Part shown: positions 1-51,700 of the stretch, in pieces
Layout of the letters: each line of letters begins with the position of its first letter
Numbering within the stretch: the stretch's first letter is position 1
Source of the DNA: Eledone cirrhosa
Lineage: Eukaryota
NCBI GenBank assembly: GCA_964016885.1
Contig: OZ024742.1
Span: 148,242,001 to 148,306,000 of the forward strand
Direction: 5' to 3'
DNA length: 64,000 bases
Notes under the pieces: generated by a model
What the model was told of the DNA's origin: nothing
Database searches by the model: none
What the model saw: only the letters and a program-made list of their open reading frames with translations
Made by a program: the position numbers and the translations under genes

Positions 1-691
1 TAAAACGAGTTGTTGCGAAGCAGATGTATGAAATTGACATGTAAAAGCTGTCATGGGGTATATTATATGTAGTTTAGAGATAACCTGGGGCTTGAAACAA
101 TGGACCATTTACTTTACTGTAGGTTTGCTGACCGTAAGATTTATTTATTTTCTGACAGATAAAATATTTTCATTGTAGTGAGGATGGTAATTTTTAGGTG
201 GTGTAAAGCGGATTCATTATTTAAGTGGTCTATATTAGATGAAGGGATTGTTAGTTCGAACCATGGGGTTGTTTAGCTTTCACAGCATCAATAACAAATA
301 ATGCATGGATAAGATAACAATAACAGCAATATAGGCGGTAAGTTAATACAGAGGTTAAGGAAGCAAGGTATATATAGAGAGAACATGATGAATACTATTA
401 CGGATACATTGGGGTGTTCATTATAACAACAGGAGGAAGGTGATATTTCAAGGACTGTGGTAGTAGTCAAATAATGTACTTAGAATTAAGTTCATCTGTT
501 GAAAATCAAGAGTGAGGAGGTTGTGTTGACAGCAGCCGAGAAGAGATATATTTATGGGTTGATAAGATATTTGCAGACATTACTGTGGTATAGAATTAAG
601 GAGGCTAGAAGCTGCTTATAAAATATTATAGTTCTGTGGTGGTCTGTGTGAGAGTGCGGATTTCATATATTGAATGCTAAGTTATGTCGAA

Positions 692-3076
692 TTACGGTGG
701 CTTAAATCTTGTGAATTTAGTAGCGATCCTGTGTCTGCAGAAAATTGACCTTTCTATCTTGTTGTTGAGTAGCCTTTTATCGTTCCTAAGGATATACAGT
801 AATTCAAGGTCGCAGAGCCTACAATAGGACATACCGGTACTATATGCCCTTGCGGCCGACAACCTCGACCAGTTGATATTGTAGTCGATGTTTTTGTCCT
901 TAAGTTCCCAGATTCTTTTGGCGAGGGTTGTAGAACCTATTAGTGCACGGTTCTTCATCGAATATCTGTGCACATACCATCTTTTTTTAAATGTACCCGC
1001 GGTGGATCCAATGTAATTCCAAGTGGAGTTGCCCGAGTTCACCGTACACATGTACACTAGGCTCGAATCAAGGCACCTGTTCGCCAAGGGCACCTATCTG
1101 GTAGGTGACAATTGCAGTTTGAGGTGTTATTCCGTGCAGCTTCCACACTGCTGTTTTGTACACTGCTATAAGTGGGTTGTGATTCATGCCCGTTGAGGTT
1201 TTGCTGCGGCGCGTTCGTATGCGTTTGCGGTTGTGATACTGTGATGTGTTTATGTTTAGAATTTGGTGCTATGTTGCGCATAGGTGGGGTGGTTTCCCTA
1301 GAGGTATTTCTGTGGTTGATCTTGCGTATGTGGGATTCTATATTTGCAGCCGTAGAGTATGAGAGTTTTATAGTTTTTCTATTGAGGATTTTATGATATC
1401 TATGTGATATATGGAAGTGTTTATCTATTAGTTTAAAAAACGTAGAAGGCAGTCTAGTTTTTACAGAGGAGTTGAAGATTGGATTAAACCACAGGTATCT
1501 TCTAATTCTTCTATAGTTTCTAGGGTTTACATTATTCGTGTTTGGACCACCTACTCTAGGTGCTATTTGCCTACCTCTATGTCTATTCTTGTTACCTCTA
1601 TTTTTGTGTGAGCGGTTGGTGTCAGTGTTAGTGGGTTTGTTTGAGTTGTCCTTATCTGTTATAAACTGCAGCTTTTCTTTGTGTCCGGCTCTATGTAATG
1701 CCGCGTTATAATAGTTAGCATGCTCATTAAAAATTTCTAGGTTTGAGGATAAGCGGGATATTCTAAAGGATATACTACGTGCTATGGATCTGATTATGGA
1801 TCGGAGGTGGTTCGAATTATAACTAATGTAGGCCAGATTCTCATTATTTTTGTGGAAGGGTTCTATTAATCTCGTATTTAGATTTAGAGTCACATCTAGA
1901 AAGTTTGCCTTTTTATGTTTCAGTTCGTAGGTAATACTTAGGCCTAGTTTTTTGAAGAATATTCTAATGTTTTTTCTTAATCTTTCTATGCGCTGGTTAT
2001 TTAAGTTCCTAGCTATAAGGAGCGTGTCATCTCTATAAATCCCTCCTTGGAGGTTACTGAATTCTTTATGTAGGTTGTGTGCTATAAATAACCCTACAAC
2101 GTCAGTGATTTGCGCTGAATCGTTCGATCCCATTGTGATATCGAAGCTGATATCCTATCTTTTCTTACCCAATAGCTATTTTCAAATTTTATGATAGTGC
2201 TTCTAGCAGCTAGTATTATTTCAATTTCATCAGGAGTAAGATCGAAGTTATTCTGGGCAAATATAAGCGCTTTATCTAGGGTGGCTGGGGATATGGATGC
2301 GTAGTAATCGTTTATATCGAATTGTATGAAGTTACATGTTTCGCTATTTCCTATTTTACTGAACCATTCAATCGCTTCGTTAGTGTTACCCCATAAATTG
2401 ATTTCTAGTTTTCCCTTTATTTGTGTGATTACCCTATCTAGAATATTCTTGTTAATTGTACCTATATCCGACTTAGATGGGCATATTAATCTGATAGTAG
2501 GATTTGCTTCAAAATTATTTTTGTGATCCTTAAGGTTAAATGTGGGGTTGCATGGGGTTAGAGGCTCGGTTCTATCGGATATTCGGAGTTTATTTACTAT
2601 CCTAAGACCCTCCTTGTTAATGCTGGTGAGTGTGGATTCATTTGTTTGTTTTTTTTGTATTTTTTGTGTAGTTCACGCTGAATGAAATTATTGTGTGTGT
2701 TAAGGTCCATAGAATATACGTTTGATGTTTTGTCTGCCTTTAGTATGATACCGTTGGTGTCTTTTAGTTTTTTTAGTAGTATATTGATGTCATTTTGTAA
2801 TTTGTTGTGGTGTGTTCTTTTTTTGAATTTAGTTCCACTTATATTCATAAGGTCCAGCTCGAAGGCATCGAGCGTGGGGTTGTTTTGAGGGTGTTTGCAG
2901 GATTTGAATCCGTAATTCTCCTTAGAAAATTCTCTTGTGTTAATAGCTAGTCCTTTGTCAAAGTGGTAAGCCTTCCATCTTACCCTACGGATGAAATCAT
3001 TAGTCCAGTGTGTCATGCCTAGTGTATAGTCCTTAGGTATGTTTTTCAGTGACATTCCTATGCGGTGCTTTTCCAT
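692..3076 (-). pseudogene. Disrupted PLE RT + GIY-YIG endonuclease ORF (pieces 2597-3076, 1057-2133, 692-1093)
   Basis: Colinear domain order, broken by frameshifts/stops at ~2600, ~2155 and ~1090. Confidence 0.85.
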
Positions 3077-3227
3077 GTTGTTGCCGTGCGTTAATGATGT
3101 TGCTCAACCAGGTGGGAGCTATGTATACAGGATAACAAATTATTGTTATAGGTAGTCCACTTAGATGTAGTCCAGTTAGGGTACTCTGAGTAGTGGATAG
3201 TATTAACGCTTGGCTAAGTTTGACTCA

Positions 3228-3275
3228 ACAAAGACGTTTCCATAGTGTTACATGCTAAAGTCATCAGTATACTTT
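3228..3275 (-). ncRNA. Degenerate minimal type-I hammerhead ribozyme in the PLE 5' pseudo-LTR
   Basis: Minus strand reads CTGATGA-ctttagcatgtaacactatg-GAAA-cg-TC. Stems I and II are weak. Confidence 0.5.
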
Positions 3276-3404
3276 ATGTCTTACTTAGATTGATGTTGTG
3301 ATTATTTTAACTATTTACAGTCTAGCTAATTTATTTGAGTATTGTTATTATTGGTCTGATTTAATGCCACTACTATATATAGAAGCCATGCCTGTGTATT
3401 TCCT

Positions 3405-3531
3405 TCATTCTCGCATGCTCTGATGAATTGACTCGTTATAACAAAGTATTGGTGATCGATTGATGCAAAAACAAGCGGGTAGCGATCTCTAGACCTACCA
3501 GTTCAGAGAAACAATTGTCAGCAATGTGAAT
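3405..3531 (+). ncRNA. Type-I hammerhead ribozyme with long stem-II insert
   Basis: catgct-CTGATGA(3420-3426)...GAAA-caattg-TC(3519)-agcaatg. Stem III is palindromic. Followed by AATAAA and (TA)n. Confidence 0.7.
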
Positions 3532-3572
3532 AAAGCCCTTATTGTATAGCAAACCATGTCACTTTTCTTTCT

Positions 3573-3608
<36 letters not shown>

Positions 3609-8722: not shown

Positions 8723-9393
8723 AAATGAAAGCTAGTCATCCCCCCAATCTGTACGACATATACAATATGTCTAGCGACCAATTCACTAGTATGTGCTGCT
8801 CAATCATTCTTAAGCGATCTTTCTCCAATTTTCTGTTACCATAAATGATTTCATACAATTATAAACATTTCCGGTTATAGGAAAAATATTTCCTGTGTCA
8901 TTTCCTTCAGGTAATTTAGTCTTTGGTGTATTTCGGTGTATCTGACATGTTACGCGAAGAATCATTTTCAAATTGAGATTAAAGGTTTCCAGAAATTGGC
9001 AATTATTGGTTATTTTTAGTTCCTGAATTTGATAAATTTGTTTTAACAGAATCGAACTAAAACGACTTTATATAAAAGAACAGGCAGGAATGAAAGGTTA
9101 TAGAAAGTTTCTATGCAGTATTTACAGAGAAATATGTATTTTATATTTAAATGTGTGTGTGTGAATGTGTGTGTGTGTGAATGTGTGTGTGTGTGTGGGG
9201 GGGGGGGGGGGGTGAGTGAGTGTGTGTGTGAGTATGTGTGTGTTTGAATAGAGTAAGCAAATGTGGTGTGTATTTCTATGTGTGGAATACACATCAAATT
9301 CAAAGCGCATGTATATACATCTGTATAAACAAAAGGTCGAACACACGCACAGACACGACACATATGTATGTATGCATGTATAATATATATATA

Positions 9394-9557
9394 TTAAAAG
9401 ACTATTTCATGAAAACTTTCAGTGGAGATGGTCACGGTTGGAATTTCATTCATCAGCAGAGCTCAACAGAGCCCTGGTTTTCTGTTGAGCTCTGCTGATG
9501 AATGAAATTCCAACCGTGACCATCTCCACTGAAAGTTTTCATGAAATAGTCTTTTAA
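9394..9557. repeat. Perfect 77-bp inverted repeat with 10-nt loop
   Basis: 9394-9470 is the reverse complement of 9481-9557. Confidence 0.95.
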
Positions 9558-9570
9558 GACTATACAGAGC
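9489..9570 (+). ncRNA. Canonical type-I hammerhead ribozyme with stable stem III
   Basis: gctctg-CTGATGA-atgaaa...tttcat-GAAA-tagtct ttta agacta-TA(9564)-cagagc. Stems I, II and III are each about 6 bp. Confidence 0.85.
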
Positions 9571-9820
9571 ATTTGATGTTATTCCAAATTGAAGGATAAG
9601 TGTTTCAAACTTTATTTTATCATGAGTTAAAGGTCTATAGATTTTTCCCTGGATTTTACTAAATTCTGTGGATGAATTTATATCCTGATTCTCTTTTGAG
9701 ATGAGTTTGAGTTATTTTTCCTAAATCTTTCGTTAACTACTTTTCCCATCTTGACGTTATAGTCGCATATATGTTATAGAATGCCGTTAGCTTCTTGCTA
9801 AAACAATCTCTATACCTCTC

Positions 9821-9880
<60 letters not shown>

Positions 9881-11884: not shown

Positions 11885-13345
11885 TGTTCTTCTGGTTTTA
11901 TAATTTCACAAAGTTTTACCAATAGAGAGAGAGTCGGTTTCTAACATAGACACAAGACTCTCTCATTGGAATTTACACAACATCAACTAGGTAGATATGT
12001 ATGTATGTCTGCATGCATGCATGTGTAGATATGGATGTTATTGTATGTGTGGATGTGGATGTTTTGAGTTGTATGTGTGCATGTGTATATGCTTTGTATC
12101 TGTACATGTGTATATGCAGTTATTAGATGCAAAATGTTTGGAATGTTTTACAAATTTTTACTGTTCCATTAATGGATTGTACTTGTAATTTCCTAACTAG
12201 TTGTGTTCTTTCTGTTCCTGTGAAGCCTAGCTTCTCAAGATTTGTATTGAGGCAGTTACTAACATATCCCAGTGCCCCAATAATCACAGGCATAAATCTG
12301 AAGGTGTAATCAGGGTGGAGTATCTGCAGATTTCTCATCAGTTCTGCATAAATATTCTCCTTTTCACTAATCTTTGATATTATATTGGCATCTGCTGGGC
12401 AGCTAATTTCCACTACTGTGCATATTTTCTTCTCCCTGTCCCATATCATAATATCTGGTCTGTTATGCCTGCATTTTATTGGGGTTTTTACTGGAACATT
12501 CCACCAGTACTCTTTCATATTATGTACATGGATGTCTTCCACATTGTTGTAGCTTTTAATGTGTTTATTATCGGGGCTATCTTTTTTACGAACTGCATTG
12601 TACAGTGTTTTGGCCACTACATCATGCCTCATAGGTAGATAGTACCGCGATGACATCTTTGGACAGCTGCTGATGACATGGGTGATATCCTCGATGTTAG
12701 TTCTGCAGAGTCTGCACTTGTTATCACATCTAGGTGTTTTGCCTGCATCCCTATTTCTTTTGTGAATCAGGTATTTCGTGCTAATCTCCTGTTCTTGGAT
12801 TGCAAAAGCGTATCCTTCAAAGTGGGAGCCAATATAGCGGTTGTTGGTCCAAGATAGACTACTTTCCTTATCTATATTACTCTCACTCTGGAGCTTCCTG
12901 GCAACATATCCATGCATGATTTTTTGCTGATAGGCATGCAGTTTTTCATCCATGGATTCACTGCGATACTGCTGAGCGACATCCCTGGGTGTGAGTTTTT
13001 GATTATCACACAGGGAATATCTCTCAAGGAGTTCCTTCCCAACTCTCATGATCTTATCTGTTTCATGCAGATAGACTTGCTCGAGAAGCGGGCTCCTACG
13101 CTTCGGGGTTCGTAGATGTCGGAGAGATATGATGCGACATTCGAATGTTGTCTGGATTGATGTTAGGCCTCTGCCTCCCTGCTTACGTTTCAAGTAAAGG
13201 CGGTCTATGTCACTGTTGATGTGGAAGTTTCCGGTGTTGTTCAGTATTTTTCGAGTTCCAACATCAACTGCTTGGATTTCGTCTATCGTCCAATTGAGTA
13301 TTCCAAACGTTGGTGTTAGGACAGGCACTATGTAGGACAGGCACT
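11885..13345 (-). mobile_element. 5'-truncated R4/Dong-like (RLE) non-LTR retrotransposon in (TACA)n
   Basis: ORF 12123-13328 contains 'RLYLKRKQGGRGL', CCHC knuckle 'CRLC..EDITHVISSC', 'RHD' and RLE motif 'NRPDIMIWD..VVEISCP'. Confidence 0.9.
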
Positions 13346-14628: not shown

Positions 14629-15022
14629 AGTATGTATCTATGTGTGTATGTATGTACGCATGTATCTATACGTGTATTCATATGTTAATCTATGTGTGTA
14701 TGTATCTGCGTAAATGTATGTACTTCTGTATGTATATGTGTGTGCGTGTGCGTATGTGTGTGTGTGTGTGAATGTATGTATGTATACATGTATTTATGTA
14801 CGATTGTATGTATCTATGCGTCAATGTATGCATTTATGTATACGTGCATGTATGTCAATGCACATGCATATACACTTCGACTTACAATTCAATGATTTTT
14901 ATATATTGAAATATATTCAGTAAGGAAATAGGTGAACATAAAAATAGTTAAATGAATCCGGTAAAGTACTCTTGAAGACAGGAACAGAGGACAGAGATGA
15001 TGTTTTCAACCATGACTTTGCC

Positions 15023-15568
15023 GGGGTCGATAAAATAAAGTACCAGTAATGTACTGGGATAATTGCTGGCCTTGTGCCTAAAGTAGAAACAATTATTTTA
15101 GTTATCTGCCGAGGTTAACTTTGCCTTTCATCCTTACGGGGTCGATAAAATAAAGTACCAGTAATGTACTGGGATAATTGCTGGCCTTGTGCCTAAAGTA
15201 GAAACAATTATTTTAGTTATCGGCCGAGGTTAACTTTGCCTCTCATCCTTACGGGGTCGATAAAATAAAGTACCAGTAATGTACTGGATAATTGCTGGCC
15301 TTGTGCCTAAAGTAGAAACAATTATTTTAGTTATCGGCCGAGGTTAACTTTGCCTCTCATCCTTACGGGGTCGATAAAATAAAGTACCAGTAATGTACTG
15401 GATAATTGCTGGCCTTGTGCCTAAAGTAGAAACAATTATTTTAGTTATCGGCCGAGGTTAAATTTGCCTCTCATCCTTACGGGATCGATAAAATAAAGTA
15501 CCAGTAATGTACTGGGATAATTGCTGGCCTGGTGCCAGAAGTAGAAACAATTATTTTAGTTATCTGCA
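15023..15568 (+). repeat. Five tandem ~115-bp units of a tRNA-SINE body (three units in the inverted arm, 15941-16258)
   Basis: gccgaggttaactttgcctttcatccttacggggtcgataaaataaagtaccag matches the dispersed SINEs at 32408, 33470 and 34685. Confidence 0.9.
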
Positions 15569-15862: not shown

Positions 15863-16835
15863 AGTAAAATGCAGATAATTATAATAATACTTCATAGCTA
15901 TAAATAATGGTTGATTAAATCTGGAAAAGTGCCCTTGCAGATAACTAAAATAATTGTTTCTACTTTAGGCACAAGGCCAGCAATTATCCCAGTGCATTAC
16001 TGGTACTTTATTTTATCGACCCCGTAAGGATGAAAGGCAAAGTTAACCTCGGCAGATAACTAAAATAATTGTTTCTACTTTAGGCACAATGCCAGCAATT
16101 ATCCCAGTACATTACTGGTACTTTATTTTATCGATCCCGTAAGGATGAAAGGCAAAGTTAACCTCGGCAGATAACTAAAATAATTGTTTCTACTTTAGGC
16201 ACAAGGCCAGCAATTATCCAGTGCATTACTGGTACTTTATTTTATCGACCCCGGCAAAGTCATGGTTGAAAACATCATCTCTGTCCTCTGTTCCTGTCTT
16301 CAAGAGTACTTTACCGGATTCATTTAACTATTTTTATGTTCACCTATTTCCTTACTGAATATATTTCAATATATAAAAATCATTGAATTGTAAGTCGAAG
16401 TGTATATGCATGTGCATTGACATACATGCACGTATACATAAATGCATACATTGACGCATAGATACATACAATCGTACATAAATACATGTATACATACATA
16501 CATTCACACACACACACACATACGCACACGCACACACATATACATACAGAAGTACATACATTTACGCAGATACATGCACACATAGATTAACATATGAATA
16601 CACGTATAGATACATGCGTACATACATACACACATAGATACATACATACATACATGCATACATACATACATATACATATGCACATACATACATACAAGGT
16701 GGTGTTCACCGAACCAGAAAGTGCACGCCAAATTAAGAAATATTAAGTACAGTCCACGGAGCTGCAGATATGTGAAGAATATTCCAAACATTTAGCATGC
16801 AATAACTGCATATACAGACATATAGATATAACAAC

Positions 16836-19519
16836 ATAATGGTCAAGAGAAATTGGATGGGAGAATTGTTCTGGTTAAGTGAATATGGTTAGTTCGCTGG
16901 GGTGTCAGAATTCAGATTTTCTATTGAAGTAAAGAAAGTAAAGATGTGTATGTTTATTTGTGTGCTTGTGTGTGTGTGTGTGTGTGTGTGTGTATTGGAA
17001 GATGATTCTATTAGTAGAAATGGGGGAGGGAGTTGTGTGTGTGTGTATATGGGTGTTATGTGTGTGTGGGAGTATGTTAAGATGGAGAGAATATATATAT
17101 TTTGCGTGTGTGTATATATGTGTGTAGGAAAGTGATTCTATTAGTAGAAATGGGGGAGGGAGTTGTGTGTGTGGGGTTGTTATGTGTGTGTATGGGTGTT
17201 ATGTGTGTGGGAGTATGGTTAGCATGTTAAGATGAAGAGAATATATATATATATTGTGTGTGTGTGCGTATGTGTAGGAAAATGATTCCTTTAGTAGGAA
17301 TATTTTTGAATGAACATATTTTCCTTACTTATTCGTACTTGTTCTGTTGTATTGTCAGCGCAAACGTATGTTAAGGTTTATTTAGTTCGTGTTATCTTCT
17401 AAAGTAGCAGGTGTTATGTGTATGTGTATGTGTCTGTTTGGATGGTTAGCATGTTATGGTTTTGACATAATGTATATTAAACCATATTTAATGTCAGTTT
17501 CTTAATCTTAAAAAAGACACAAATATTGAAACTGACATACACTATAAACCAACAGATTCCAAACAATACCCGCTATTCACCTCCAACCACCCAAAGCACA
17601 CGAAGACGAACATTCCTTTTAAGCTAGCAAGAAGAATTTGCACAATTGTCTCCAATTATGAAACGCGAAATAAAAAACTTCAAGAATTAAAGGAAATTCT
17701 ACTCGAAAGAGAAACCCACCATTACTAATAAATAATGGAATAGAAAGGGCTAAAGCAATAGGCATTGATGAATTACGAAAACAGAAACAAATTCAAGGTA
17801 CGTCCAATATTCTATCATATATCTCAACACACAACCCAAGAAATGCAGAAGCTTACAACACTATTCACAAGAACATCTCACTACTAAAACAAAACCCAAG
17901 AATGAAAAAAGCCCTTGAAACACACAAAATAATCGAAAGCAAAAAACAACCGAAATCACTGAAAACATTACTCACCAATGCCAAATTACCTACCACAAAC
18001 CCACAACCAACTGTCAAAAAATGTGATCGCTCTAATTGTGGAACCTGCAATCACCTCATTGAAGGCAACACGTATACATTTAAATCAGGACAAAATTTTG
18101 CTGTAAAAATTCACTTCACTTGCTCATCAAAAAATCTAATTTATGCCATTAAATGTAAAGGATGCAATGAAGATTATATAGGACAAACTAAACTCACACT
18201 CAGAAAGAGAATGACAATTAATCGCCAACAATTACGAGATCCAACCACGAGACAGATACTACTAAGCGCACATCTAGACATATGCGCAAGTAATAAGACA
18301 CCCAAATTCCAAGTCTTCCCATTTTACCTTTGCGCTAACAATACAACAGAACAAATACGAATAAATAAGGAAAATATGTTTATTCAAAAATATAGACCAG
18401 CATTAAATATGGTTTAATATACATTATGTCAACACCATAACATGCTAACCATCCAAACAGACACATACACACACACATAACACCTGCTACTTTAGAAAAT
18501 AACCCGAACTAAATAAATCTTAACATACGTTTGCGCTGACAATACACCAGAACAAATACGAATAAGTAAGGAAAGTATGTTCATTCAAAAATATTCCTAC
18601 TAAAGGAATCATTCCCCCCCCACACACAATATATATATATTCTCTTCATCTTAACATGCTAACCATACTCCCACACATATAACACCCATATACACACATA
18701 ACAACCCCCACCCCCCCACACACAACTCTCTCCCCCATTTCTACTAATAGAATCACTTTCCTACACACATATATACACACACACAAAATATATATGTTCT
18801 CTCCATCTTAACATACTCCCCCCACACACACATAACACCCATACACACACACACACAACTCCCTCCCCCATTTCTACTAATAGAATCATCTTCCAACACA
18901 CACACAAATAAACATACACATCTTTACTTTGCTTCAATAGAAAATCTGAATTCTGACACCCCAGCGAACTAACCATATTCACTGAACCAGAACAATTCTC
19001 CCATCCAATTTCTTTTGACCATTATCTTCTGCTTGTCATAAAATTCTCTAAAAAGGCTACAGAATAGATTTCCAAATAAGGGCGCGAAAATTTAATGAAA
19101 ACTTGTTCACGTGACAGCCATAATTTCATTTATAACCATTCAAATTACGTTTATTTAAAAAAAGCCTCCGTGAGCCCCTTTTTTTTAAGTAAAAAGAAAT
19201 TCAAACAATCATATATGAAAAAACAACCTGTGCCCCACCCCCCCTTGTTTGAAGAACTTTGTAACGCGAACTGGCGCGAAATTTATTATAATTATTGACC
19301 AACCAATCAAATTACTTCTCTAAAAACCTGGCATTTCGAGCCACTTTTTTTCATATAAAACAAGTAACATTCAGAGACCAACCAGATGTGAGAAAAACCA
19401 CAGACCCTCCATCTCAACTCTACTTTTGAAAAGCAGAAGAACTGCGAAACCGGTAAAGGAACCAAATAAATATATATTTTTTTTAAATAAGACTCCAGTT
19501 GCATTTTCGATTTCATATT

Positions 19520-21037: not shown

Positions 21038-24000
21038 CTTTGAATAACTTTGAAATGTTTTGGCCAGTATTGGCCCAGGCCATGTCTAACTTAATAGCAC
21101 CACCTGGCGAAGTCTTTCAATTCAGGATTTGGGCACCATGGCCCATTCGAGAAGAGAATTACTGTTTGCGGAGACATATCCGGGTGTGGGTGGTTTGTCC
21201 GGGATTACTTGGAGGAATTTGTCCAAAGACTTCTTGAATTTTGTGTGGTCAGTTTCTGTTTTGACGTGTCCTGGTGTGATGTTGAAGAGAGCAGGGCCGA
21301 TTGAGGTGAAATAATTGTGCCGTATTGTTGTTATGAGTTGCGATTTAGATTTTTGAATGGGACGGATAGCACGGGGCCCAAGCCTTGGGTGTATCTTGAA
21401 GGCGATGCCAACATCATTTGGGCAGTGATGATGGAACATTTTCCACATCATGCAGATAATATAACGCTCACGGCGACGTTGGAGTGAGTAAAGTTTCAGG
21501 TTTTCTAATCGACCCCAGTAGTCAAGGTCTGACATGCCATCTATCTTTTTCGTGATTGCCCTTTGAGGAGCTTCAAGTTTCATGATACTTTGTTTCGTGT
21601 GGGGAGACCACAGTGGACAACAGTATTCAAGGTGTGGTCGGGCGAAAGTAGAGAAGAGAAGGATAATGGTGCGGGAATCTCTCGACTGGAAGGTTCTGAG
21701 GATCCAGGAACACATTCTGCGGGCCATGTCAACTTTGCTGCTTATATGCGTGGTCCAGCTTATGTTGCTGTCCACGGTTACTCCCAAGTCTCTGATGTTG
21801 TTAGATGCCACGAGAGTTTCCCCGGAGGGAAGGGAGTACGGGAGTTTCAGAGCATCCTCTTTTCCAAAGTGGATCAGTTCGAATTTGTCTTCGTTCAGTA
21901 ACATGTTGTTCTTTTCTGCCCATTGGGTAACAGCCAGTAGGTCTGACTGAAGGCTTATCCGGTCATCCACGCCATTGATGACCTTTTGGAGCTTGGAATC
22001 ATCAGCGAAAATTTTAATGTTGCTGTGTTTGATGATGTCAGTGATGTCATTAATATAGATGATGAAGAGAAGTGGGCCCAACACAGTGCCTTGTGGGACC
22101 CCACTACTGACTTTGGCTGGGCTTGATTTGACTCCCTCAACTACAACATGTTGGGTTCTGTTTGACAGGAAGCTCTTGATCCACTGCAGCAGCTTTCCAG
22201 TGACACCAATATTGGACAGCTTTCTCAGTAGAATGTTATGATCAACCCTGTCAAAGGCCTTGCTGAAATCAAGGTAGATAACATCAGTGTTGGAACCCTC
22301 TCCCAAGGCTCTCAAAATGTCATCAAAGTGATGCAGTAGCTGCGTCAGGCAATCCCTTCCATTACGGAATCCATGCTGGTTGGAGTTCAGCATATTGTTA
22401 CTCTCAAGGAAGTGGGTCATTCGCGATCTCACCACTCGCTCAAATACCTTAATGATATGAGAGGTGAGTGAGATGGGCGGTAATTCACGGCAAGGGATTT
22501 GTTTCCCTTTTTGAAAACTGGGACAACAGACTGGGATAGAAGGTTTTCTGGCACATATCCAGCATCCAGTGAGTTCCGCCACAGATTGGCAAAAGGAGAT
22601 GCAAGTTGGTGTTGAAATGCCTTCAAGACACAAGCAGGGAACCTATCGGGACCTACTGCTGAATTATGCTTGATTTCCTTTATTGCCGCCAAGACATCAG
22701 GGGCGCCAAACGTTATGTCCGATAATGTGTAATGGGGAGTAACATCGCCGATACAGCCCAGATCGGCCATATCAGGATTGCTGAAAACAGAGCAGTATTG
22801 TTTCTGCAGTATCTCACCCATGGTTTTAGCATTGTCTTGAAGAGTGCCATTTTCATCAATTAGAGGGCCAACAGTAGAGCCAGTGATTTTGTGTTTTTTT
22901 GCAAATGAAAAGAACACTTTGGGATTGAGTTTGATCTTCTCAATGGCCCAGGCCTCTTCAGCTCTTCTCTGATTGTTGATGAGGGACATTATGTTGTTTT
23001 GGAGGTTATGTTTTTTAATCTCTAGTGATGAAATGGCAGTCAAGTTGATGTGTTGCTGCTGACAGTATTTCAGCTTGTTGATTTTTTTGTTCGTTCTCTT
23101 AATTTTTCTGATGAGCGTTTTTCTATTTCTAGGGATTCTGCTCTTAGATTTGTTTATAGTTCTTAATGGGGTGTGTTTAGCACATATGTTTGTAACAGTG
23201 TCCACAAATGTCTGCCAGGACTTTTTGATGTTAGTGGGTGTATGAGTGTGCGTGAAGGACCAGTCGACATGTGCAAGATCATGACTGATCGCTTCCCAGT
23301 TTGCATTGTGGAAATCCATAGCGTCAAACGGATGGACAGGAGAGATGACATTGGGTTTGTATATTGGACGGTGGAATCTCAGATCACAGAGAACCATGTC
23401 ATGATCAGAGAGTAGAGTTTTCTCCACTGCAATATTGTGGATATTGTCAGTGTGATTGCTGAAAATTAAGTCTAGGACGTTTTTGTGGCACCTCGTTGGT
23501 TCGAGCACCAGTTGGGATAGGAAGAAATCATCCATGAAGTCAAGAAGCGATTCCACAGCTTCCCTGTCAGAGGTTGAGGCAGAAGAACCTGGTGGCAGGC
23601 TGTTTGTGGACCAGTCAACTCCGGGGAGGTTGAAGTCCCCCATCATTAAGATGTTGTCAGGGTGACACTCTTGGATGAAACACTTTATGCTGTTGAGGCA
23701 TTCCTTGAAGCATGGTACAGGCGTTTGGGGTGGCCTATAGAGCCCAACTACTAATAGGTTGTTGGTTTGACTGAATACAGTGACTGCTTCACAGTATCCA
23801 TTAGTGAATATGTTCATAGCCTCTGTTGAGAAAGAATTATGGACATAAATGGCAGTTCCGCCCTTTCTTCTGCCAGCGCGATCAGCACGGATGGCTTTGA
23901 AATTTTTCACTTTCACCTCGGCTTCCAAGTAGAGGTTACTGAGATGGGTTTCAGTGAGGACGAAGAAAGGGATGTGGTTTGGATGGACATCAATCCAGTC

Positions 24001-24120
24001 CTCCAGGAATTTGATCTTCCATTTTTGAGTATTGGTGGAAGGGCTGATGCCTTGGGCGTTAAGCAAAAATGTAGAGGCGAGAGTGGATGGTTTTAATTGT
24101 TTTGGTGTGTTGTTAATTTG
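21036..24120 (-). mobile_element. CR1-group LINE, near-complete APE-RT ORF2 with one frameshift (~22490), no ORF1
   Basis: EN motifs 'LNAQG, LTETHL, GLYRPP, MGDFN, LDLIF, SDHDMV'; RT motifs 'YLDFSKAFDRV, SGVPQGTVLGPLLF, FADD'; (TTCAAAGTTA)2 tail; (TA)n on both sides. Confidence 0.93.
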
Positions 24121-24155
24121 TTTGTTTATATATATATATAATTTATATATATATA

Positions 24156-24218
<63 letters not shown>

Positions 24219-24450
24219 TGGCGGACTGGGTCTAAAAATATTGGTTGCCGGGAGATGAAGGGGCCCCACCTACATATAAAATGCTATCATTTACTTATTA
24301 TAATGAATAAATAGCATTTTCAAAAATACATAAGTGGAAACAAAACTGCAATAAAATTTTCGCAGAAAGATATCTTACCTTCTCCAATAAGAAATATTAT
24401 GTATTTTGCGAAATCCAGAGACTTTCTATAATGCCCTTTGGCCTTTTACA

Positions 24451-38975: not shown

Positions 38976-39101
38976 CAGGGTGGCCCAAAAGTCGCAATAC
39001 ATAGGACATTTTTAAGTTTCCATATTTATTTATTTTGAATAAATGGTTTCTTATAAAACATAATTATTTTTTTTATGTATAGCGACATTTGGGCCACCCT
39101 G
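38976..39101. mobile_element. 126-bp Tc1/mariner-type MITE with TA TSD
   Basis: TA-CAGGGTGGCCCAAAAGTCGC ... GCGACATTTGGGCCACCCTG-TA. Confidence 0.9.
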
Positions 39102-39103
39102 TA

Positions 39104-40782
39104 CAATCATTACAAACACTACCACTATTACCATGACAACAACAATCATTGCCATCAATACAACAATTACCACCACCAAAACCATTACCACCACCTTAAT
39201 CATTACTATCACAATCATTACCACCACTACAACCATTACAACCACCTTAATCATTACTACTACAACCATTACCGCCACTACAACCATTATCACCACCTTA
39301 ATCATTGCTACTACAACCATTACCACCATCATAACAACCATTACCACCTCCGCAATCATTACTACTACAATCATTACCACCACCGCAATCATTACTACAA
39401 CAACCATTACCACCACCATAACAACCATTACCACCACCGCAATCATTACTACAACAACCATTACCACCACCATAACAACCATTACCACCACCATAACAAC
39501 CATTACCACCACCATAACAACAATTACCACCTCCGCAGTCATTACTACTACAACCATTACCACCACCATAACAACCAGTACCACCTCCGCAATCATTACT
39601 ACAACAACCATTACCACCACCATAACAACCATTACCACCACCATAACAACCATTACCACCACCATAACAACCAGTACCACCTCCGCGATCTTTACTACTA
39701 CAACCATTACCACCACCATAACAACCATTACCACCACCATAACAACAATTACCACCTCCGCAGTCATTACTACTACAACCATTACCACCACCATAACAAC
39801 CATTACCACCACCGCAATCATTACTACAACAACCATTACCACCACCATAACAACCATTACCACCACCATAACAACCAGTACCACCTCCGCGATCTTTACT
39901 ACTACAACCATTACCACCATCATACCAACCATTACCACCACCATAACAACCATTACCACCACCGCAATCATTACTACAACAACAATTACCACCACCATAA
40001 CAACCATTACCACTACCATAACAACCATTACCACCACCGCAGTCATTACTACAACAACAATTACCACCACCATAACAACCATTACCACCACCGCAGTCAT
40101 TACTACAACAACCATTACCACCACCATAACAACCATTACCACCACCATAACAACCATTACCACCACCATAACAACCATTACCACCACCATAACAACCATT
40201 ACCACCTCCGCAATCATTACTACTACAACCATTACTACCACCATAACAACCATTACAACCACCATAACAACCATTACCACCTCCGCAATCATTACTACTA
40301 CAACCATTACTACCACCATAACAACCATTACCACAACCATAACAACCATTACCACAACCATAACAACCATTACCACCGCCGCAATCATTACTACTACAAC
40401 CATTCCTACCACCATAACAACCATTACAACCACCATAACAACCATTACCACCGCCGCAATCATTACTACTACAACCATTCCTACCACCATAACAACCATT
40501 ACAACCACCATAACAACCATTACCACCATAACAATCATTACTACTACAACGATTACCACCACCATAACAACCATTACCACCTCCGCAATTATTACTACTA
40601 CAACCATTACAACCACCATAACAACCATTACCACCTCCGCAATCATTACTACTACAACGATTACCACCACCATAACAACCATTACCACCTCCGCAATTAT
40701 TACTACTACAACCATTACCACCACCATAACAACCATTACCACCTCCGCAATTATTACTACTACAACCATTACCACCACCATA
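39104..40782. repeat. Composite 21/33-bp minisatellite, left segment
   Basis: Units accattaccaccaccataaca and accattaccacctccgcaatcattactactaca. Confidence 0.95.
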
Positions 40783-42852: not shown

Positions 42853-45610
42853 TTGTTGTCCTTAAATGCTCGCAGTTTATGCAACAAGATACATCTGTTC
42901 GAATCCTACGTCAGAAGCATCGACCCTGACTTCATCACAGTCACGGAAACATGGGCACATTCCTTACTCTGTGATGGGGTTTTCACCATTACTGGGTACA
43001 ACCTTTTCCGCAAGGACCGCATTAACCGCCGTGGTGGTGGTGTGATGGTCTACGTTCGTTCAAACTTTTCGGTAATTCCTTGCGTTGATTTGAACGAATC
43101 ACAGGAAGAAGTTTTTTCTGTGACATACGTATGACCATGTCAACACTTCTGCTTGGTGTTGTTTATCGCCCCCCAAACTACCATCAGGACACACAGCTTT
43201 GCGATATCCTAAGAGTTGCTGCCAAGAAAACAGCCACTTATGTGTTTATTGCAGGTGACTTCAATCATCCTGAGATCGATTGGGAAACCTTTCGTTGGCC
43301 ACAGGGTGCAAACGATTTCCTTGAACTAGTGCTGGACTCAAACTGGTCACAAGTAGTCACCTCTCCAACAAGAGGTGACAACACTTTGGACCTGATATTC
43401 ACCACTACTCCTGAAGTGGTTATCAGTTGTACTACTGAGGAACCTCTAGGCGACTCTGATCATGCTATGATCATTGCCAATCTGGCACTTGAGGGCAGCA
43501 ACAAAAACCAGAGCCATCTCCAATCTGCTTGCTTTGATTGGAAGAGGGCGGATTGGAACTTGTACTGCACTGAGCTACAGCGCCCAAACTGGCATGAGAT
43601 GTATAACTCTGGAGATGTGAACTCTATACTCCAGAGCATCCTGGACTCAATATGGATAGCGTGTGCAGCATCAGTGCCACGGAAGCGGAAAAATAACCAC
43701 CCCAAAAGTGCAATCTGGGAAACTTCAGCGGTCCGACTTGCCAGGAAAGAACGTCGGAACGCTGAACGGGAATATAAACTGCATAGATCAGATGCCAACA
43801 GAAAAAAGCGGAATAAATCTTCTAACCATCTCAAGCAAGTGACAAAGAAGGCAGTGCTTGAATTTGAACAGTGCATCGCAACCAATCCTGACAGTAAGGT
43901 GTTCTGGAAATATGTTCATTCAAAGCAGAGACCTCACTCTCCAGTTGGTCCTCTTCGCAATCCCCACACAAGCCAGATCACTGACGATCCCAAGGAATGC
44001 GCAGAACTCATTGCTGAGTGCTATGCAAGTATTTTTACGGTTGAAAACCAGAATGTACCATCTCCACCATCTCTAACATCAAATTCCATAACAACTATGG
44101 AATTTACACCTGCAATGTTGCGACGTCACCTTAAGAATAAGCGCAACTATGCCTCCCCTGGTCTTGATGGTGTGACATACCTGCTTCTCAAACGTGGCGG
44201 GGATTTCCTTTTGCGCCAGCTTTCTTTTTTCTTTCAATACTGTCTCAGCAATGGTGCTACTCCGGAGCAGTGGAAAACTGCCAGTGTCATTCCCCTGTTC
44301 AAAAAGGGCAACCGCATGTCACCTGTCAACTATCGTCCAGTCAGTCTTACTAGCTGTATGGCCAAACTGATGGAATCCTGTGTCAGAGAAACACTTTGGA
44401 ACTTCTGGAGCTCTCACAGCCTCATCCGGCCGTCACAGTTTGGATTTATCCCTAACTCCAGCTGCTGTGATCAGCTTATCGAGTTCCTTGAGGACATCAC
44501 CCGGATCACTGACAGCGGCTCATGGGTGGATGTTGTTTACCTTGACTTTGCTAAGGCTTTTAATTCTGTGCCACACAAAAGACGTATGGCAAAACTCTCT
44601 GCAATGGGTGTGAGGGATGATCTTTTCGACTGGCTGAAATCCTTCATTCTCAGCCGAAAGGAAGTAGTCACGGTTCTAGGACAGCATTCTTCACCATATG
44701 AGATGTCATCTGGTGTACCACAGGGATCTGTTCTTGGTCCTCTTTTGTTTGTGGCATATATTAATGACATAGATGCCAACTTACAGAATGCCACGGTACT
44801 AAAATATGCAGATGACATCAAGCTGTACCTTGAAATCAAAAGGACTGATCCTGAAATTTACAACTCTTTCCTACAGTCAGACCTGGACACAATGCAGCAA
44901 TGGATCACAGACTGGCAACTGAAGCTGGCTGTGGACAAGTGTACCACCATGCATTTTGGAAGGAAAAATCCAGCGTCCACATACTCCCTCCACAACACTG
45001 ACATCAAAAAGTCCTCTTGTGAACGTGACCTGGGCATTACTGTCAGCAACGTTGGACAAAGCATGTCTCTAAGATTGTCAAGAAGGCCGAGGGTGTCTTG
45101 GCATCACTCAGCAAGACCTTTGTTAGCCGCTCTCCAGCCATCTATTTAAAACTGTATACAGCTATGGTGCGACCACACTTGGAATTCGCATCATCAGTCT
45201 GGAACCCCTATCTTGCTCGGAACATTGACCTCCTGGAAACTGTTCAGAGACGTGCAACCAAGCGCATACCCTCCATCAGACACCTACCATACTCTGAACG
45301 CCTTGCTTCCCTGGGCATGGATTCATTAAAGCTCCGACGTCTGGCAATGGACTTGGTGAATACCCACAAAGTTTTTAACCATCTCGCCAACTGCAACCCT
45401 GAGCGCCTCTTTGATCTCCATGTGTCTAACACACGTGGACATGCCTACAAGATAAGAAAACAGCACAGCTCCCATGACTTTCGCAGACATTTTTTCACGC
45501 TCAGAGTTGCTGAAGCATGGAACAAACTGCCTGCGTCAATTGTTAGCTGCCGAGACACTGCATCCTTTAAGACACTCATGCTTCCCGAAATACGCCAAAA
45601 CTACACGTTA
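42853..45610 (+). pseudogene. CR1-type ORF2 (APE + RT) with frameshifts at ~43125 and ~45050
   Basis: 'LNARSL, VTETW, YRPP, AGDFN, SDHAM, YLDFAKAF, SGVPQGSVLGPLLF, YADD, RPHLEF, FFTLRVAEAWNKLP'. Confidence 0.92.
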
Positions 45611-45770: not shown

Positions 45771-48700
45771 ATAACAACCATTACCACCTCCGCAATCATT
45801 ACTACTGCAACGATTACCAACACCATAACAACCATTACCACCTCCGCAAACATTACTACTACAAACATTGCCACCACCATAACAACCATTACCACCACCA
45901 TAACAACCATTACCACCTCAGCAATCATTACTACTACAAACATTGCTACCACCATAACAACCATTACCACCACCATAACAACCATTACCACTTCCGCAAT
46001 CATTACTACTACAACCATTCCCACCACCATAACAACCTTTACCACCTCCGCAATCATTACTACTATAACAATTTCTACCACCATAACAACCATTACCACC
46101 ACCATAACAACCATTATCACGTCCGCAATCGTTACTATAACAACCATTACCACCACCATAACAACCATAACTACCACCGCAATCATTATTACTACAACCA
46201 TTACCACCACCATAACAACCATTACTACCACCGCAAATATTACTACTACAACCATTACCACCACCGCAATCATTAATACGACAACCATTACCACCCCCAT
46301 AACAACCATTACCACCACCATAACAACAATTACCACCTCCGCAATCATTACTACTATAACCATTACCACGACCATAACAACCATTACCACCTCCGCAATC
46401 ATTACTACTACAACCATTCCTACCACCATAACAACCATTACCACCTCCGCAATCGTTACTATAACAACCATTACCACCTCCGCAATCATTACTACTACAA
46501 CCATTACCACCACCATAACAACCATTACCACCTCCGCAATCATTACTACTACAACCATTACCACCACCATAACAACCATTACCACCTCCGCAATCATTAA
46601 TACTACAACCATTACCACAACCATAACAACCATTACCACCACCGCAATCATTACTACTACAACCTTTAATACCACCATAACAACCATTACCACCATAACA
46701 ACCATTACCACCACCATAACAACCATTACCACCTCCGCAATCATTACTACTACAACCATTACCACCACCATAACAACCATTACCACCTCCGCAATCATTA
46801 TTACATTAACCATTACCACCACCATAACAACCATTACCACCTCCGCAATCATTACTACTTCCACCATTACCACCTCCGCAATCATTACTACAACAACCAT
46901 TACAACCTCCGCAGTCATTACTACAACAACCATTACCACCCCCGCAGTCATTACTAACACAACCATTACCACCACCATAACAACCATTACTACCACCGCA
47001 ATCATTACTACTACAACGATTACCACCACCATAACAACCATCGCCACCTCCGCAATCATTACTACTACAACCATTACAACCACCATAACAACCATTACCA
47101 CCACCAAAACAACCATTACCAACTTCGCAATCAATACTACTACAACTATTACTACCACCATAACAACCATTACCACCACCATAACAACCATTACCACCTC
47201 CGCAATCATTACTACTTCAACCATTACCACCTCCGCAATCATTACTACTACAACCATTACCACCACCATAACAACCATTACCACCCCCGCAATCATTACT
47301 ACTTCAACCATTACCACCACCATAACAACCATTACCACCTCGGCAATCATTACTACTACAATAATTACCACCACCATAAAAACCATTACCACCTCCGCAA
47401 CCATTACTACTACAACCATTACCACCACCATAACAACCATTACCACCACCGCAATCATTACTACTACAAACATTACCACCACCATAACAACCATTACCAC
47501 CTCCGCAATCGTTACTACTACAACCATTACCACCACCATAACAACCATTACCACCTCCGCAAACATTACTACTACAACCATTAACACCACCATAACAACC
47601 ATTACCACCTCCGCAATCATTACTACTACAAACATTAACACCACCGCAATCATTACTACTACAACCATTACCACCACCATAACAACCATTACCACCTCCG
47701 CAACCATTACTACTACAATAATTACCACCACCATAACAAGCATTAGCACCTCCGAAATCATTACTACTACAACCATTACCACCACCATAACAACCATTAC
47801 CACCACCGCAATCATTACTACTACAACCATTACCACCACCATAACAACCATTACCACCTCCGCAATCATTATTACAACAACCATTACCACCACCATAACA
47901 ACCATTGCCACCCCCTCAATCATTACTACTTCAAACATTACCACCTCCGCAATCATTACTACTACAACCATTACCACCACCATAACAACCATTACCACCA
48001 CCGCAATCATCACTACTACAAACATTACCACCACCGCAATCATTACTACTACAACCATTACCACCACCATAACAACCATTACCACCTCCGCAACCATTAC
48101 TACTACAAACATTACCACTACCATAAAAACCATTACCACCTCCGCAGTCATTACTACTACAACCATTACCACCACCATAACAACCATTACCACCTCCGCA
48201 ACCATTACTACTACAAACATTACCACTACCATAAAAACCATTACCACCTCCGTAACCATTACTACTACAACGATTACCACCACCATAACAACATTACCAC
48301 CTCCGCAGTCATTACTACTACAAACATTACCACCACCGCAATCATTACTACTACAACCATTACCACTACCATAACAACCATTACCACCACCGCAATCATT
48401 ACTACTACAACCATTACCACCACCATAACAACCATTGCCACCTCCGCAATCTTTACTACTACAACCATTACCACCACCATAACAAACATTACCACCACCA
48501 TAACAACCATTACCACCACCGCAATCATTACTACTACAACCATTACCACCACCATAACAAACATTACCACCTCCGCAATCATTACTACTACAACCATTAC
48601 CACCACCACAACAGCCATTACCACCACCGCAATCATTACTACTACAACCATTAACACCACCATAACAACCATTACCACCTCCGCAATCATTACTACTACA

Positions 48701-51700
48701 ACCATTACCACCACCATAACAACCATTACCACCTCCGCAATCATTACTACTACAACCATTACCACCACCATAACAACCATTACCACCTCCGCAATCATTA
48801 CTACTACAATCATTACCACCACCGCAATCATTACTACTACAACCATTACCACCACCATAACAACCATTACCACCTCCGCAGTCATTACTAATACAACGAT
48901 TACCACCACCATAACAACATTACCACCTCCGCAATCATTACTGCTACAACCATTACTACCACCATAACAACCATTACCACCACCATAACAACCATTACCA
49001 CATCCGCAATCATTACTACAACAAACATTACCACCACCGCAATCATTACTACTACAACCATTACCACCACATAACAACCATTACCACCTCCGCAATCATT
49101 ACTACTACAACCATTAACACCACCATAACAACCATTACCACATCCGCAATCATTACTACAACAAGCATTAGCACCACCATAACAACCATTACCACCTCCG
49201 CAATCATTAGTACTACAACCATTACCACCACCATAACAACCATTACCACATCCGCAATCATTACTACTACAACCATTACCACCACCATAACAACCATTAA
49301 CACATCCGCAATCATTACTACTACAACCATTACCACCACCATAACAACCATTACCACCTCCGCAATCATTACTACTACAACCATTACCACCACCATAACA
49401 ACCATTACCACCTCCGCAATCATTACTACTACAACCATTACCACCACCATAACAACCATTAACACATCCGCAATCATTACTACTACAACCATTACCACCA
49501 CCATAACAACCATTACCACCTCCGCAATCATTACTACTACAACCATTACCACTACCATAACAACCATTACCACCTCCGCAATCATTATTACAACAACCAT
49601 TACCACCACCATAACAACCATTACCACCTCCGCAATCATTACTACTACAAACATTACCACCACCGCAATCATTACTACTACAACCATTACCACCACCATA
49701 ACAACCATTACCACCTCCGCAACCATTACTACTACAAACATTACCACTACCATAACAACCATTACCACCTCCGCAGTCATTACTACTACAACGATTACCA
49801 CCACCATAACAACCATTACCACCACCGCAATCATTACTACTACAACCATTACCACCACCATAACAACCATTGCCACCTCCGCAATCTTTACTACTACAAC
49901 CATTACCACCACCATACCAACCATTACCACCACCACAACAGCCATTACCACCACCATAAAAACCATTACCACCACCATAACAACCATTACCACCTCCGCA
50001 ATCATTACTACTACAACCATTACCACCACCATAACAACCATTACCACCTCCGCAATCCTTACTACTACAACCATTACCATCACCATAACAACCATTACCA
50101 CCTCCGCAATCATTACTACTACAACCATTACCACCACCATAACAACCATTGCCACCACCATAACAACCATTACCACCTCCGCAATCATTACTACTACAAC
50201 CATTACCATCACCATAACAACCATTACCACCTACGCAATCATTACTACTACAACCATTACCACCACCATAACAACCATTACCACCTCCGCAATCATTACT
50301 ACTACAAACATTACCATCACCATAACAACCAATACCACCTCCGCAATCATTACTACTACAACCATTACCACCACCATAACAACCATTACCACTTCCGGAA
50401 TCATTACTACTACAACCATTACCATCACCATAACAACCATTACCACCTCCGCAATCATTACTACTACAACCATTACCACCACCATAACAACCATTACCAC
50501 CTCCGCAATCATTACTACTACAACCATTACCATCACCATAACAACCATTACCACCTCCGCAATCATTACTACTACAACCATTACCACCACCATAACAACC
50601 ATTACCACCTCCGCAATCATTACTACTACAACCATTACCATCACCATAACAACCATTACCACCTCCGCAATCATTACTACTACAACCATTACCACCACCA
50701 TAACAACCATTACCACTTCCGCAATCATTACTACTACAACCATTACCATCACCATAACAACCATTACCACTTCCGCAATCATTACTACTACAACCATTAC
50801 CACCACCATAACAACCATTACCACCTCCGCAATCATTACTACTACAACCATTACCACCACCATAACAATCATTGCCACCACCATAACAACCATTACCACC
50901 TCCGCAATCATTACTACTACAACCATTACCACCACGATAACAACCATTACCACCACCATAACAACCATTACCACCTCCGCAATCATTACTACTACAACCA
51001 TTACCATCACCATAACAACCATTACCACCTCCGCAGTCATTACTACTACAACGATTACCACCACCATAACAACCATTACCACCACCGCAATCATTACTAC
51101 TACAACCATTACCACCACCATAACAACCATTGCCACCTCCGCAATCATTACTACTACAACCATTACCACCACCATAAAAACCATTACCACCTCCGCAATC
51201 ATTACTACTTCAACCATTACCACCCCCGCAATCATTACTACTTCAACCATTACCACCACCATAACAACCAATACCACCTCCGCAATCATTATTACAACAA
51301 CCATTACCACCACCATAACAACCATTACCACCTCCGCAATCATTACTACTACAACCATTACCACCACCATAACAACCATTAACACCTCCGCAATCATTAC
51401 TACTACAACCATTACCATCACCATAACAACCATTACCACTTCCGCAATCATTACTACTTCAACCATTACCACCACCATAACAACCAATACCACCTCCGCA
51501 ATCATTATTACAACAACCATTACCACCACCATAACAACCATTACCACCTCCGCAATCATTACTACTACAACCATTACCACCACCATAACAACCATTAACA
51601 CCTCCGCAATCATTACTACTACAACCATTACCACCACCATAAAAACCATTACCACCTCCGCAATCATTACTACTTCAACCATTACCACCCCCGCAATCAT

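What the first reader, a model, noticed from the sequence alone, without database searches (positions are those of the whole stretch)
9394..9823. Canonical monomer-type hammerhead overlapped by a perfect 77-bp antisense arm
Seen: an HHR at 9489-9570 with all three stems about 6 bp and an AUA triplet, unlike minimal PLE HHRs. The upstream 77 nt are its perfect reverse complement and stop inside the stem-III loop, 7 nt short of the cleavage site. Inference: a young fold-back insertion. A read-through transcript would form 77-bp dsRNA that blocks the ribozyme and could be an ADAR or Dicer substrate.
Basis: partly seen in the sequence, partly recalled or inferred. Interest (0 to 1): 0.7.

Follow-up and report, generated by a model that had tools for sequence, protein, structure and literature searches.

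The report
Snapped-back copy of a hammerhead retrozyme
This is a cut-short copy of an abundant 630-base jumping repeat that carries a predicted self-cutting RNA motif; its 77-base mirror arm was likely made once, by accident, when the new DNA copy folded back on itself during insertion, a known by-product of Penelope-type jumping genes rather than a built-in off-switch.

Summary
Observation confirmed. 9394-9470 is a perfect reverse complement of 9481-9557, and 9489-9570 is a full type I hammerhead motif with compensatory changes against an older subfamily. Bases 9468-9823 are a 5'-truncated copy of a 630-bp non-coding tandem repeat (1,306 exact 3'-end matches). The family has a fixed 3' end, variable 5' ends and (TA)n targets: a non-LTR retrozyme with Penelope-like (PLE) insertion marks. 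The arm turns on a native 3-bp microhomology with a 10-nt loop, best read as cDNA snap-back. It is rare: 1 of 74 unbiased insertions, and 3 loci in a genome-wide gap search. The three arms end at different TA/AT sites, not at a fixed distance from the cleavage site. Autonomous PLEs in this genome show the same head-to-head form, which is published for PLEs. The arm abolishes the predicted ribozyme fold, but transcription, editing and dicing are untested, and no partner PLE was identified. A side result is a predicted pseudoknot between loop II and the 5' flank. The scan has noted similar hammerhead fold-backs before, in this genome and others. Ordinary mechanism, new family member.

The parts
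9384..9393 (.). Left remnant of the (TA)n target microsatellite
   Evidence: Sequence; 88 of 107 family 5' ends have (TA)3 within 14 nt
9394..9470 (-). 77-nt inverted arm = reverse complement of 9481-9557 (unit positions 290-364); an incomplete antisense hammerhead lacking the 3' strands of helices III and I
9468..9483 (+). Turning point: native AGA (9468-9470) pairs with TCT (9481-9483) around the native 10-nt loop 9471-9480
   Evidence: Other copies read ...GTGAGAGCCCTGGTTT(T)CTGTTG; the junction is unique in the genome-wide search
9468..9823 (+). 5'-truncated copy (unit positions about 276-630) of a 630-bp non-coding tandem repeat (non-LTR retrozyme)
9475..9522 (+). Predicted pseudoknot: 5' flank 9475-9487 with loop II 9511-9522 (inferred)
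9489..9570 (+). Type I hammerhead motif, AUA triplet 9562-9564, predicted cleavage 9564|9565
9801..9823 (+). Fixed 3' end of the family (inferred reverse-transcription start), 259 nt downstream of the cleavage site; the native unit continues with TATA-like bases
9824..9864 (.). Right (TA)20 target microsatellite
   Evidence: 104 of 106 family 3' ends in view are followed by (TA)n

Best explanation
The locus is a 5'-truncated copy of a 630-bp hammerhead-bearing tandem repeat (a non-LTR retrozyme) set in a TA microsatellite, and its 77-bp mirror arm was likely made once, by the new cDNA folding back on itself during insertion by a Penelope-like (PLE) enzyme. Steps: (1) shown: fixed 3' end, scattered 5' ends, partial tandems, (TA)n targets, no ORF. 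(2) Inferred: a PLE endonuclease nicks (TA)n and its reverse transcriptase starts at unit position 630 on an RNA that is continuous across the cleavage site (circle or uncut multimer). (3) Inferred: synthesis stopped about 20 nt upstream of helix I, the cDNA 3' end paired back through 3 bp, copied itself for 74 nt and was joined to the upstream TA run. (4) Predicted: any RNA read through the locus forms a 77-bp hairpin and cannot fold the ribozyme; this is a side effect and the copy is most likely inert.
For: Family: 1,306 exact 3'-end matches, 2,315 matches to a loop II 15-mer, tandem period about 630, longest open frame 91 aa. 104 of 106 3' ends lie in (TA)n; 5' ends of 74 3'-anchored insertions spread from position 1 to 606. 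42 of 74 run past the cleavage site and 1 of 74 ends within 5 nt of it. Junction: native AGA/TCT microhomology, with the loop in the polarity expected for first-strand snap-back. Rarity: 1 of 74 (L086); 3 loci genome-wide for arms covering the 15-mer with a 20-250 nt gap. Same form in autonomous PLEs here: L182 (arms about 1.6 kb, 8-nt loop on a native 4-bp palindrome) and L177 (26-nt loop), and a PLE-like element 6 kb upstream in this window with a 331-bp inverted terminal copy. These PLEs also end in (TA)n. Literature passages: inverted 5'-truncated copies are typical of PLEs (PMC8557442); junction palindromes were read as self-priming (PMC3846280); cDNA snap-back junctions occur with R2 protein (PMC11204384).
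Against: No partner PLE was found: among 40 GIY-YIG loci the only significant hit was a separate retrozyme-like fragment, and the best PLE match was reached by 4 of 100 shuffles after picking the best of 34. The cDNA end can form a stronger 7-bp hairpin than the 3-bp one used. In L086 and L194 the spacer has the opposite polarity, so simple first-strand snap-back does not cover them without priming from the other strand or a spacer flip. Inverted copies look much commoner in long PLE copies than in this family (not counted formally; sample biased to long ORFs). Units within arrays are only moderately more alike than between arrays (1.1 versus 2.0 differences per 100 nt, 43 and 630 pairs, several arrays showing no difference), so rolling-circle copying is not established. 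No target-site duplication can be seen in (TA)n.
Confidence: 0.78

Rival explanations
1. Double priming: both target strands were nicked and each primed a cDNA (one from position 630, one from position 364 on another unit of a multimer or circle); the two cDNA ends were joined through the 3-bp microhomology.
For: A PLE protein cuts and extends both strands in vitro and is predicted to be a dimer (PMC11167929). All three outer arm ends sit on TA/AT microhomology. Spacer polarity varies between loci. Many PLE loci here carry an inverted terminal copy of unequal length.
Against: Two independent cDNAs should not stop within 7-14 nt of each other (L086, this locus), or within 8 and 26 nt in kilobase PLE arms. 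None of the 74 3'-anchored insertions has a second arm ending at the canonical 3' site. A hybrid (both strands primed, one cDNA folds back) fits all loci and differs from the best explanation only in detail.
Confidence: 0.12
2. The arm is a selected off-switch or dsRNA source: read-through RNA forms a hairpin that blocks cleavage of a host transcript or feeds ADAR/Dicer against the family.
For: The fold predicts complete loss of the ribozyme. All three loci found have arms over the ribozyme, but the search pattern required that.
Against: The arms are identical and the copy matches the youngest subfamily, so there is no sign of retention. About 1% of copies carry such an arm. The ORFs I scanned in the window are transposon ORFs or had no Pfam hit; host exons were not searched for systematically. 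The copy lacks positions 1-275 of the unit.
Confidence: 0.05
3. Assembly or library artefact (a chimeric fold-back read).
For: The arms are perfectly identical; complex PLE inversions are known to trouble assemblies (PMC8557442).
Against: The arm is short, sits between a left flank seen as a single low-depth contig in another run and a different right flank, turns on native microhomology and ends in TA like other copies. A sister locus has arms differing at 5 of 340 positions, which a read artefact would not give.
Confidence: 0.05

Closest known systems
Metazoan non-LTR retrozymes (Cervera and de la Pena 2020, PMC7229834, passages and section 14 read; Li, Clavereau and Pollet 2026, bioRxiv 10.64898/2026.07.22.740005, parts 1-3 of 5 read)
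   Same: Non-coding, low-GC tandem repeats with one full type I hammerhead per unit; monomers, dimers and multimers; co-occurrence with PLEs. As in the mussel family, the usual loop-loop contact nucleotides are not evident.
   Different: The unit is 630 nt against about 170-400 in invertebrates (within the 51-972 range of the 2026 preprint). Loop II is 29 nt with a predicted pseudoknot to the 5' flank. Strict (TA)n targeting, a fixed 3' end and 5' inversions are not described in the parts I read. Cleavage and circular RNA are untested here.
Insertion units of endonuclease-bearing Penelope-like elements (PMC8557442 and PMC3846280, passages read; PMC11167929, parts 1-2 of 4 read)
   Same: 5' truncation, partial tandems, an inverted 5'-truncated copy head to head with a small palindrome at the junction, AT-rich or microsatellite targets, reverse transcription starting inside the RNA.
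   Different: No ORF and no detected homology to the PLEs sampled; a full rather than minimal hammerhead; no 30-40 bp tail; the inversion is rare (about 1%) and its outer end is variable.
R2 'snap-back' 5' junctions (PMC11204384 and PMC11331408, passages read)
   Same: The cDNA 3' end primes on itself before the 5' junction forms, giving a reverse-complement segment upstream of a truncated insert.
   Different: A different enzyme class and target; seen there with engineered templates in human cells.
L1 twin-priming inversion (PMC11702581, passages read)
   Same: An inverted segment at the 5' side, with microhomology.
   Different: Twin priming gives adjacent, nearly non-overlapping segments; here the inverted segment duplicates 77 nt.

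Membership tests
Type I hammerhead ribozyme | Intact core CUGANGA...GAAA...NUH with three helices, helix I open | tested here: met
Type I hammerhead ribozyme | Helices supported by compensatory change | tested here: met
   2 pairs in helix I and 1 in helix II change on both sides between subfamilies; helix III has none; essentially two lineages
Type I hammerhead ribozyme | Match to an Rfam hammerhead model | tested here: not met
   No hit at gathering score or E<=10; the 29-nt loop II may explain this (inference)
Type I hammerhead ribozyme | Tertiary contact between helix I and helix II regions | tested here: inconclusive
   Loop II pairs with the 5' flank in both subfamilies; own pairings -9.1 and -11.9 versus crossed -7.0 and -8.4 kcal/mol; the inner 4 bp are 91% paired but nearly invariant; could also be an inhibitory fold
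Type I hammerhead ribozyme | Self-cleavage | not testable with these tools
   Needs in vitro transcription
Non-LTR retrozyme | Tandem repeats with a type I hammerhead in each unit | tested here: met
   Arrays of 2-6 units seen in fetched loci, about 12 evenly spaced matches at one place; 18 of 74 insertions have 2 or more units
Non-LTR retrozyme | No protein coding, low GC | tested here: met
   Longest open frame 91 aa; no significant tblastn match to PLE proteins; unit is visibly AT-rich
Non-LTR retrozyme | Abundant linear and circular unit-length RNA | not testable with these tools
   Needs RNA data from the species; see Tried and rejected
PLE-mobilised non-autonomous element | Fixed 3' end, variable 5' truncation, partial tandems, microsatellite target | tested here: met
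PLE-mobilised non-autonomous element | Inverted 5'-truncated copy, head to head | tested here: met
   3 loci; rare, 1 of 74
PLE-mobilised non-autonomous element | Sequence shared with an autonomous PLE terminal repeat | tested here: inconclusive
   None found in 40 loci taken from the best 150 of 10,596 GIY-YIG candidates, nor in the window's own PLE; sampling is small
PLE-mobilised non-autonomous element | Optional 30-40 bp tail at one end | tested here: not met
   104 of 106 3' ends stop at position 630 and go straight into (TA)n
Functional hairpin RNA (endo-siRNA or ADAR substrate) | Transcribed, edited or diced | not testable with these tools
   Needs stranded RNA and small-RNA reads

The most novel reading that the evidence does not exclude
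Snap-back arms turn a few copies of an active retrozyme into ribozyme-dead hairpin genes whose double-stranded RNA is edited or diced and restrains the 1,300-plus-copy family in trans: a self-made brake produced by the element's own insertion errors, on a pseudoknotted hammerhead copied from circular RNA by a Penelope enzyme.
Probability: 0.06. Interest if true: 0.7.

Novelty: new member of a known kind. Interest (0 to 1): 0.27.

Why it matters
The locus itself is an ordinary insertion by-product. The family is of modest use. It is very young (many identical copies), so its junctions record how a retrozyme moves: one fixed start 259 nt past the cleavage site, passage across that site in 42 of 74 insertions with no pile-up there, (TA)n targets and PLE-style inversions. 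That supports the proposed, still unproven, mobilisation of retrozymes by PLE enzymes from uncut or circular RNA, and it offers a defined template for an in vitro test. The predicted pseudoknot gives a testable reason for the long conserved loop II.

Tried and rejected
Rfam: no hammerhead hit; the miRNA matches only reflect the hairpin and are far below their cut-offs. Sequencing runs: no RNA holder listed. Contigs and RAD reads laid on the locus (7 runs): no listed piece bridges the arm or centre junction, and a contig of the left flank ends at 9394 in two runs of one sample. This neither confirms the palindrome nor shows an empty allele. Partner PLE: relaxed blastn, tblastn and local alignment gave nothing significant; a weak antisense match to a PLE ORF failed the shuffle test. 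Second fold-back pattern further 3': 0 hits, but it includes a homopolymer that varies, so it is insensitive. L062 (two copies 1.6 kb apart) and L145 (tail to tail) were rejected as fold-backs. Alignment A1 used wrong coordinates and was discarded. Literature: 'octopus' + 'hammerhead ribozyme' gave 5 papers (4 listed), none on such a family by title or abstract start; that search and searches are all I ran, and the supplements of the retrozyme papers were not read (the bioRxiv ones are closed), so an earlier listing of this family or a Repbase entry is not excluded.

Full report
Observation. The palindrome and the ribozyme motif are as described. 9394-9470 is the exact reverse complement of 9481-9557 (77 bp, 10-nt loop), and 9489-9570 folds as a type I hammerhead with an intact core, 6-bp helices I and II, a 29-nt loop II, helix III and an AUA triplet, cut predicted after 9564. 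The arm ends at 9557, one base past the helix III loop. Rfam does not recognise the motif and its folding energy is unremarkable. An older subfamily, 72% identical, keeps the core and changes both sides of 2 pairs in helix I and 1 in helix II; 95-97% of cells pair, against 21-51% when partners are slid. These changes come from about two lineages.

What it belongs to. 9481-9823 matches 40 of 40 scored places at 99-100% (1,657 candidates). Tandem copies define a 630-bp unit with no open frame over 91 aa. The 3'-end 23-mer has 1,306 exact matches and a loop II 15-mer 2,315. Of 107 distinct insertions examined, 104 of the 106 with the 3' end in view run into (TA)n at unit position 630, and 88 have (TA)3 within 14 nt of the 5' end. 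In the 74 insertions picked only by their 3' end (from the first 100 listed matches, all on one contig; copies whose 5' end lay outside the fetched DNA were left out), 5' ends spread from position 1 to 606, the median length is 294 nt and 18 have two or more units. 42 of 74 extend past the cleavage site and 1 ends within 5 nt of it. A fixed 3' end with scattered 5' ends is the mark of target-primed reverse transcription (established knowledge), and the template must have been continuous across the cleavage site (inference). This fits non-LTR retrozymes (PMC7229834; bioRxiv 10.64898/2026.07.22.740005). The window copy is positions about 276-630. The host is probably a cephalopod; this is my impression from genome size and microsatellite load, not tested.

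The arm. In other copies the bases before 9471 read GTGAGA; here they read CAACAGA, so AGA is shared between the arm and the native sequence and pairs with TCT at 9481-9483. The loop is native sequence in sense orientation, as expected if the first-strand cDNA passed through it, folded back and copied itself. Its outer end abuts the TA run. This junction is unique. A gap search for head-to-head arms covering the loop II 15-mer (gap 20-250) found 3 loci: this one, L086 (340-bp arms, 7-nt spacer, 5 differences) and L194 (630-bp arms, about 54-nt spacer). L086 was also the only one among the 74 unbiased insertions. The outer ends lie at positions 364, 585 and 306, each at TA/AT, so they are not tied to the cut at 371. 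Against a simple story: the spacers of L086 and L194 have the opposite polarity, and the cDNA end here could form a 7-bp hairpin stronger than the 3 bp used. Priming from both strands followed by fold-back of one cDNA would cover all three (inference).

Who moves it. The genome holds many GIY-YIG elements (10,596 candidates, 150 scored), some with frames of 844-1,096 aa carrying RT, a Cys-rich linker and the endonuclease; that linker marks the Neptune and Nematis clades (PMC8557442). They end in (TA)n, some carry a minimal hammerhead, and they show the same head-to-head form: L182 has 99.7% identical arms of about 1.6 kb turning on a native 4-bp palindrome with an 8-nt loop, and L177 has a 26-nt loop. 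A PLE-like element at window 1-3575 has a 331-bp inverted terminal copy at its 5' end. Such inverted 5'-truncated copies are described as typical of PLEs (PMC8557442), junction palindromes were read as self-priming (PMC3846280), a PLE protein primes both strands and starts inside its RNA (PMC11167929), and snap-back junctions are known from R2 (PMC11204384). I found no sequence shared between the retrozyme and the PLEs sampled, so the partner is inferred, not identified. Units within arrays differ by 1.1 per 100 nt against 2.0 between arrays, and some arrays share private deletions (periods 599-601); this is compatible with, but does not prove, rolling-circle copying.

Consequence. With the arm, the predicted pairing of helices I-III drops from about 0.99, 0.5 and 0.99 to 0.0. 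Whether the locus is transcribed is unknown. The ORFs scanned in the window are PLE and LINE frames or gave no Pfam hit, the copy lacks the first 275 nt of the unit, and no U6-type promoter match was found. At about 1% frequency and with identical arms there is no sign of selection.

Side result. In nested folding of native copies, loop II pairs with the 18 nt upstream of helix I. This pairing is kept in both subfamilies: up to 13 bp in old copies (best of 201 windows in 3 of 21) and 9-10 bp in young copies (rank 3-28 of 204), and own pairings beat crossed ones. Several decayed old copies pair poorly. It has the geometry of the pseudoknot that stabilises many hammerheads (PMC3088659, passages), but it could also be an inhibitory fold. 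The window copy retains this strand, and the arm covers its inner half.

Earlier notes. The sequence look-up found nothing. A word look-up showed that the scan has reported hammerhead fold-backs as PLE footprints before, in this genome and others. I had reached this reading before opening them. Two notes describe back-to-back arms ending at two fixed sites; this family differs, with rare arms and variable ends.

Verdict. A real feature; a new retrozyme family member with a known kind of insertion accident. Interest 0.27.

Noticed in passing
window 1-3575 (- strand) and L195 5506-9576: Near full-length, frame-broken PLE-like element (RT motif YRDD, YIG-type nuclease; no Pfam hit) with a 331-bp inverted terminal copy at its 5' end; both terminal copies carry a hammerhead-core-like motif with an 81-nt insert (window 3412 +), not folded or tested.
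   Followed up: partly
window 17674-18417 (+): 3' fragment of a PLE with a GIY-YIG domain (Pfam E 3e-5), like the L172/L173 family.
   Followed up: partly
window 21122-24231 (-) and 43089-45149 (+): Two LINE-type frames (endonuclease + RT by Pfam).
   Followed up: partly
window 12123-13343 (-): 406-aa frame with a CRLC/RH motif and a PD-like motif resembling the C-terminus of a restriction-like-endonuclease retrotransposon (recalled resemblance; no Pfam hit).
   Followed up: no
window 39100-40780 and 45771-64000: Very long degenerate tandem array of 9/12/21-nt units with open frames up to 3,232 aa (Thr-rich in one frame); satellite or mucin-like exon, undecided.
   Followed up: no
window 15022-15564 and 15937-16253: Two arrays of a 114-115 bp unit in opposite orientations; related sequence flanks many retrozyme copies in TA runs.
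   Followed up: no
L143 (about 600-2500): An old-subfamily retrozyme duplicated tail to tail together with its flanking DNA as one large palindrome; genomic inverted duplication or assembly issue.
   Followed up: partly
L194 895-2526: The inverted arm pairs over exactly one unit length (positions 307-630 then 1-306), starting and stopping at the ribozyme core; a single case.
   Followed up: partly
L182 6016-6072: 57-nt fragment 79% like the retrozyme 3' end, possibly a third subfamily.
   Followed up: no
G000:C19:31.78-31.84 Mb (L198-L208): Tandem cluster of about 30 U6 genes at roughly 1.8-kb spacing.
   Followed up: no
one search run list: Words of this stretch occur in runs labelled with several other organisms (contigs laid for two of them), so the family is probably shared by related species.
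   Followed up: partly
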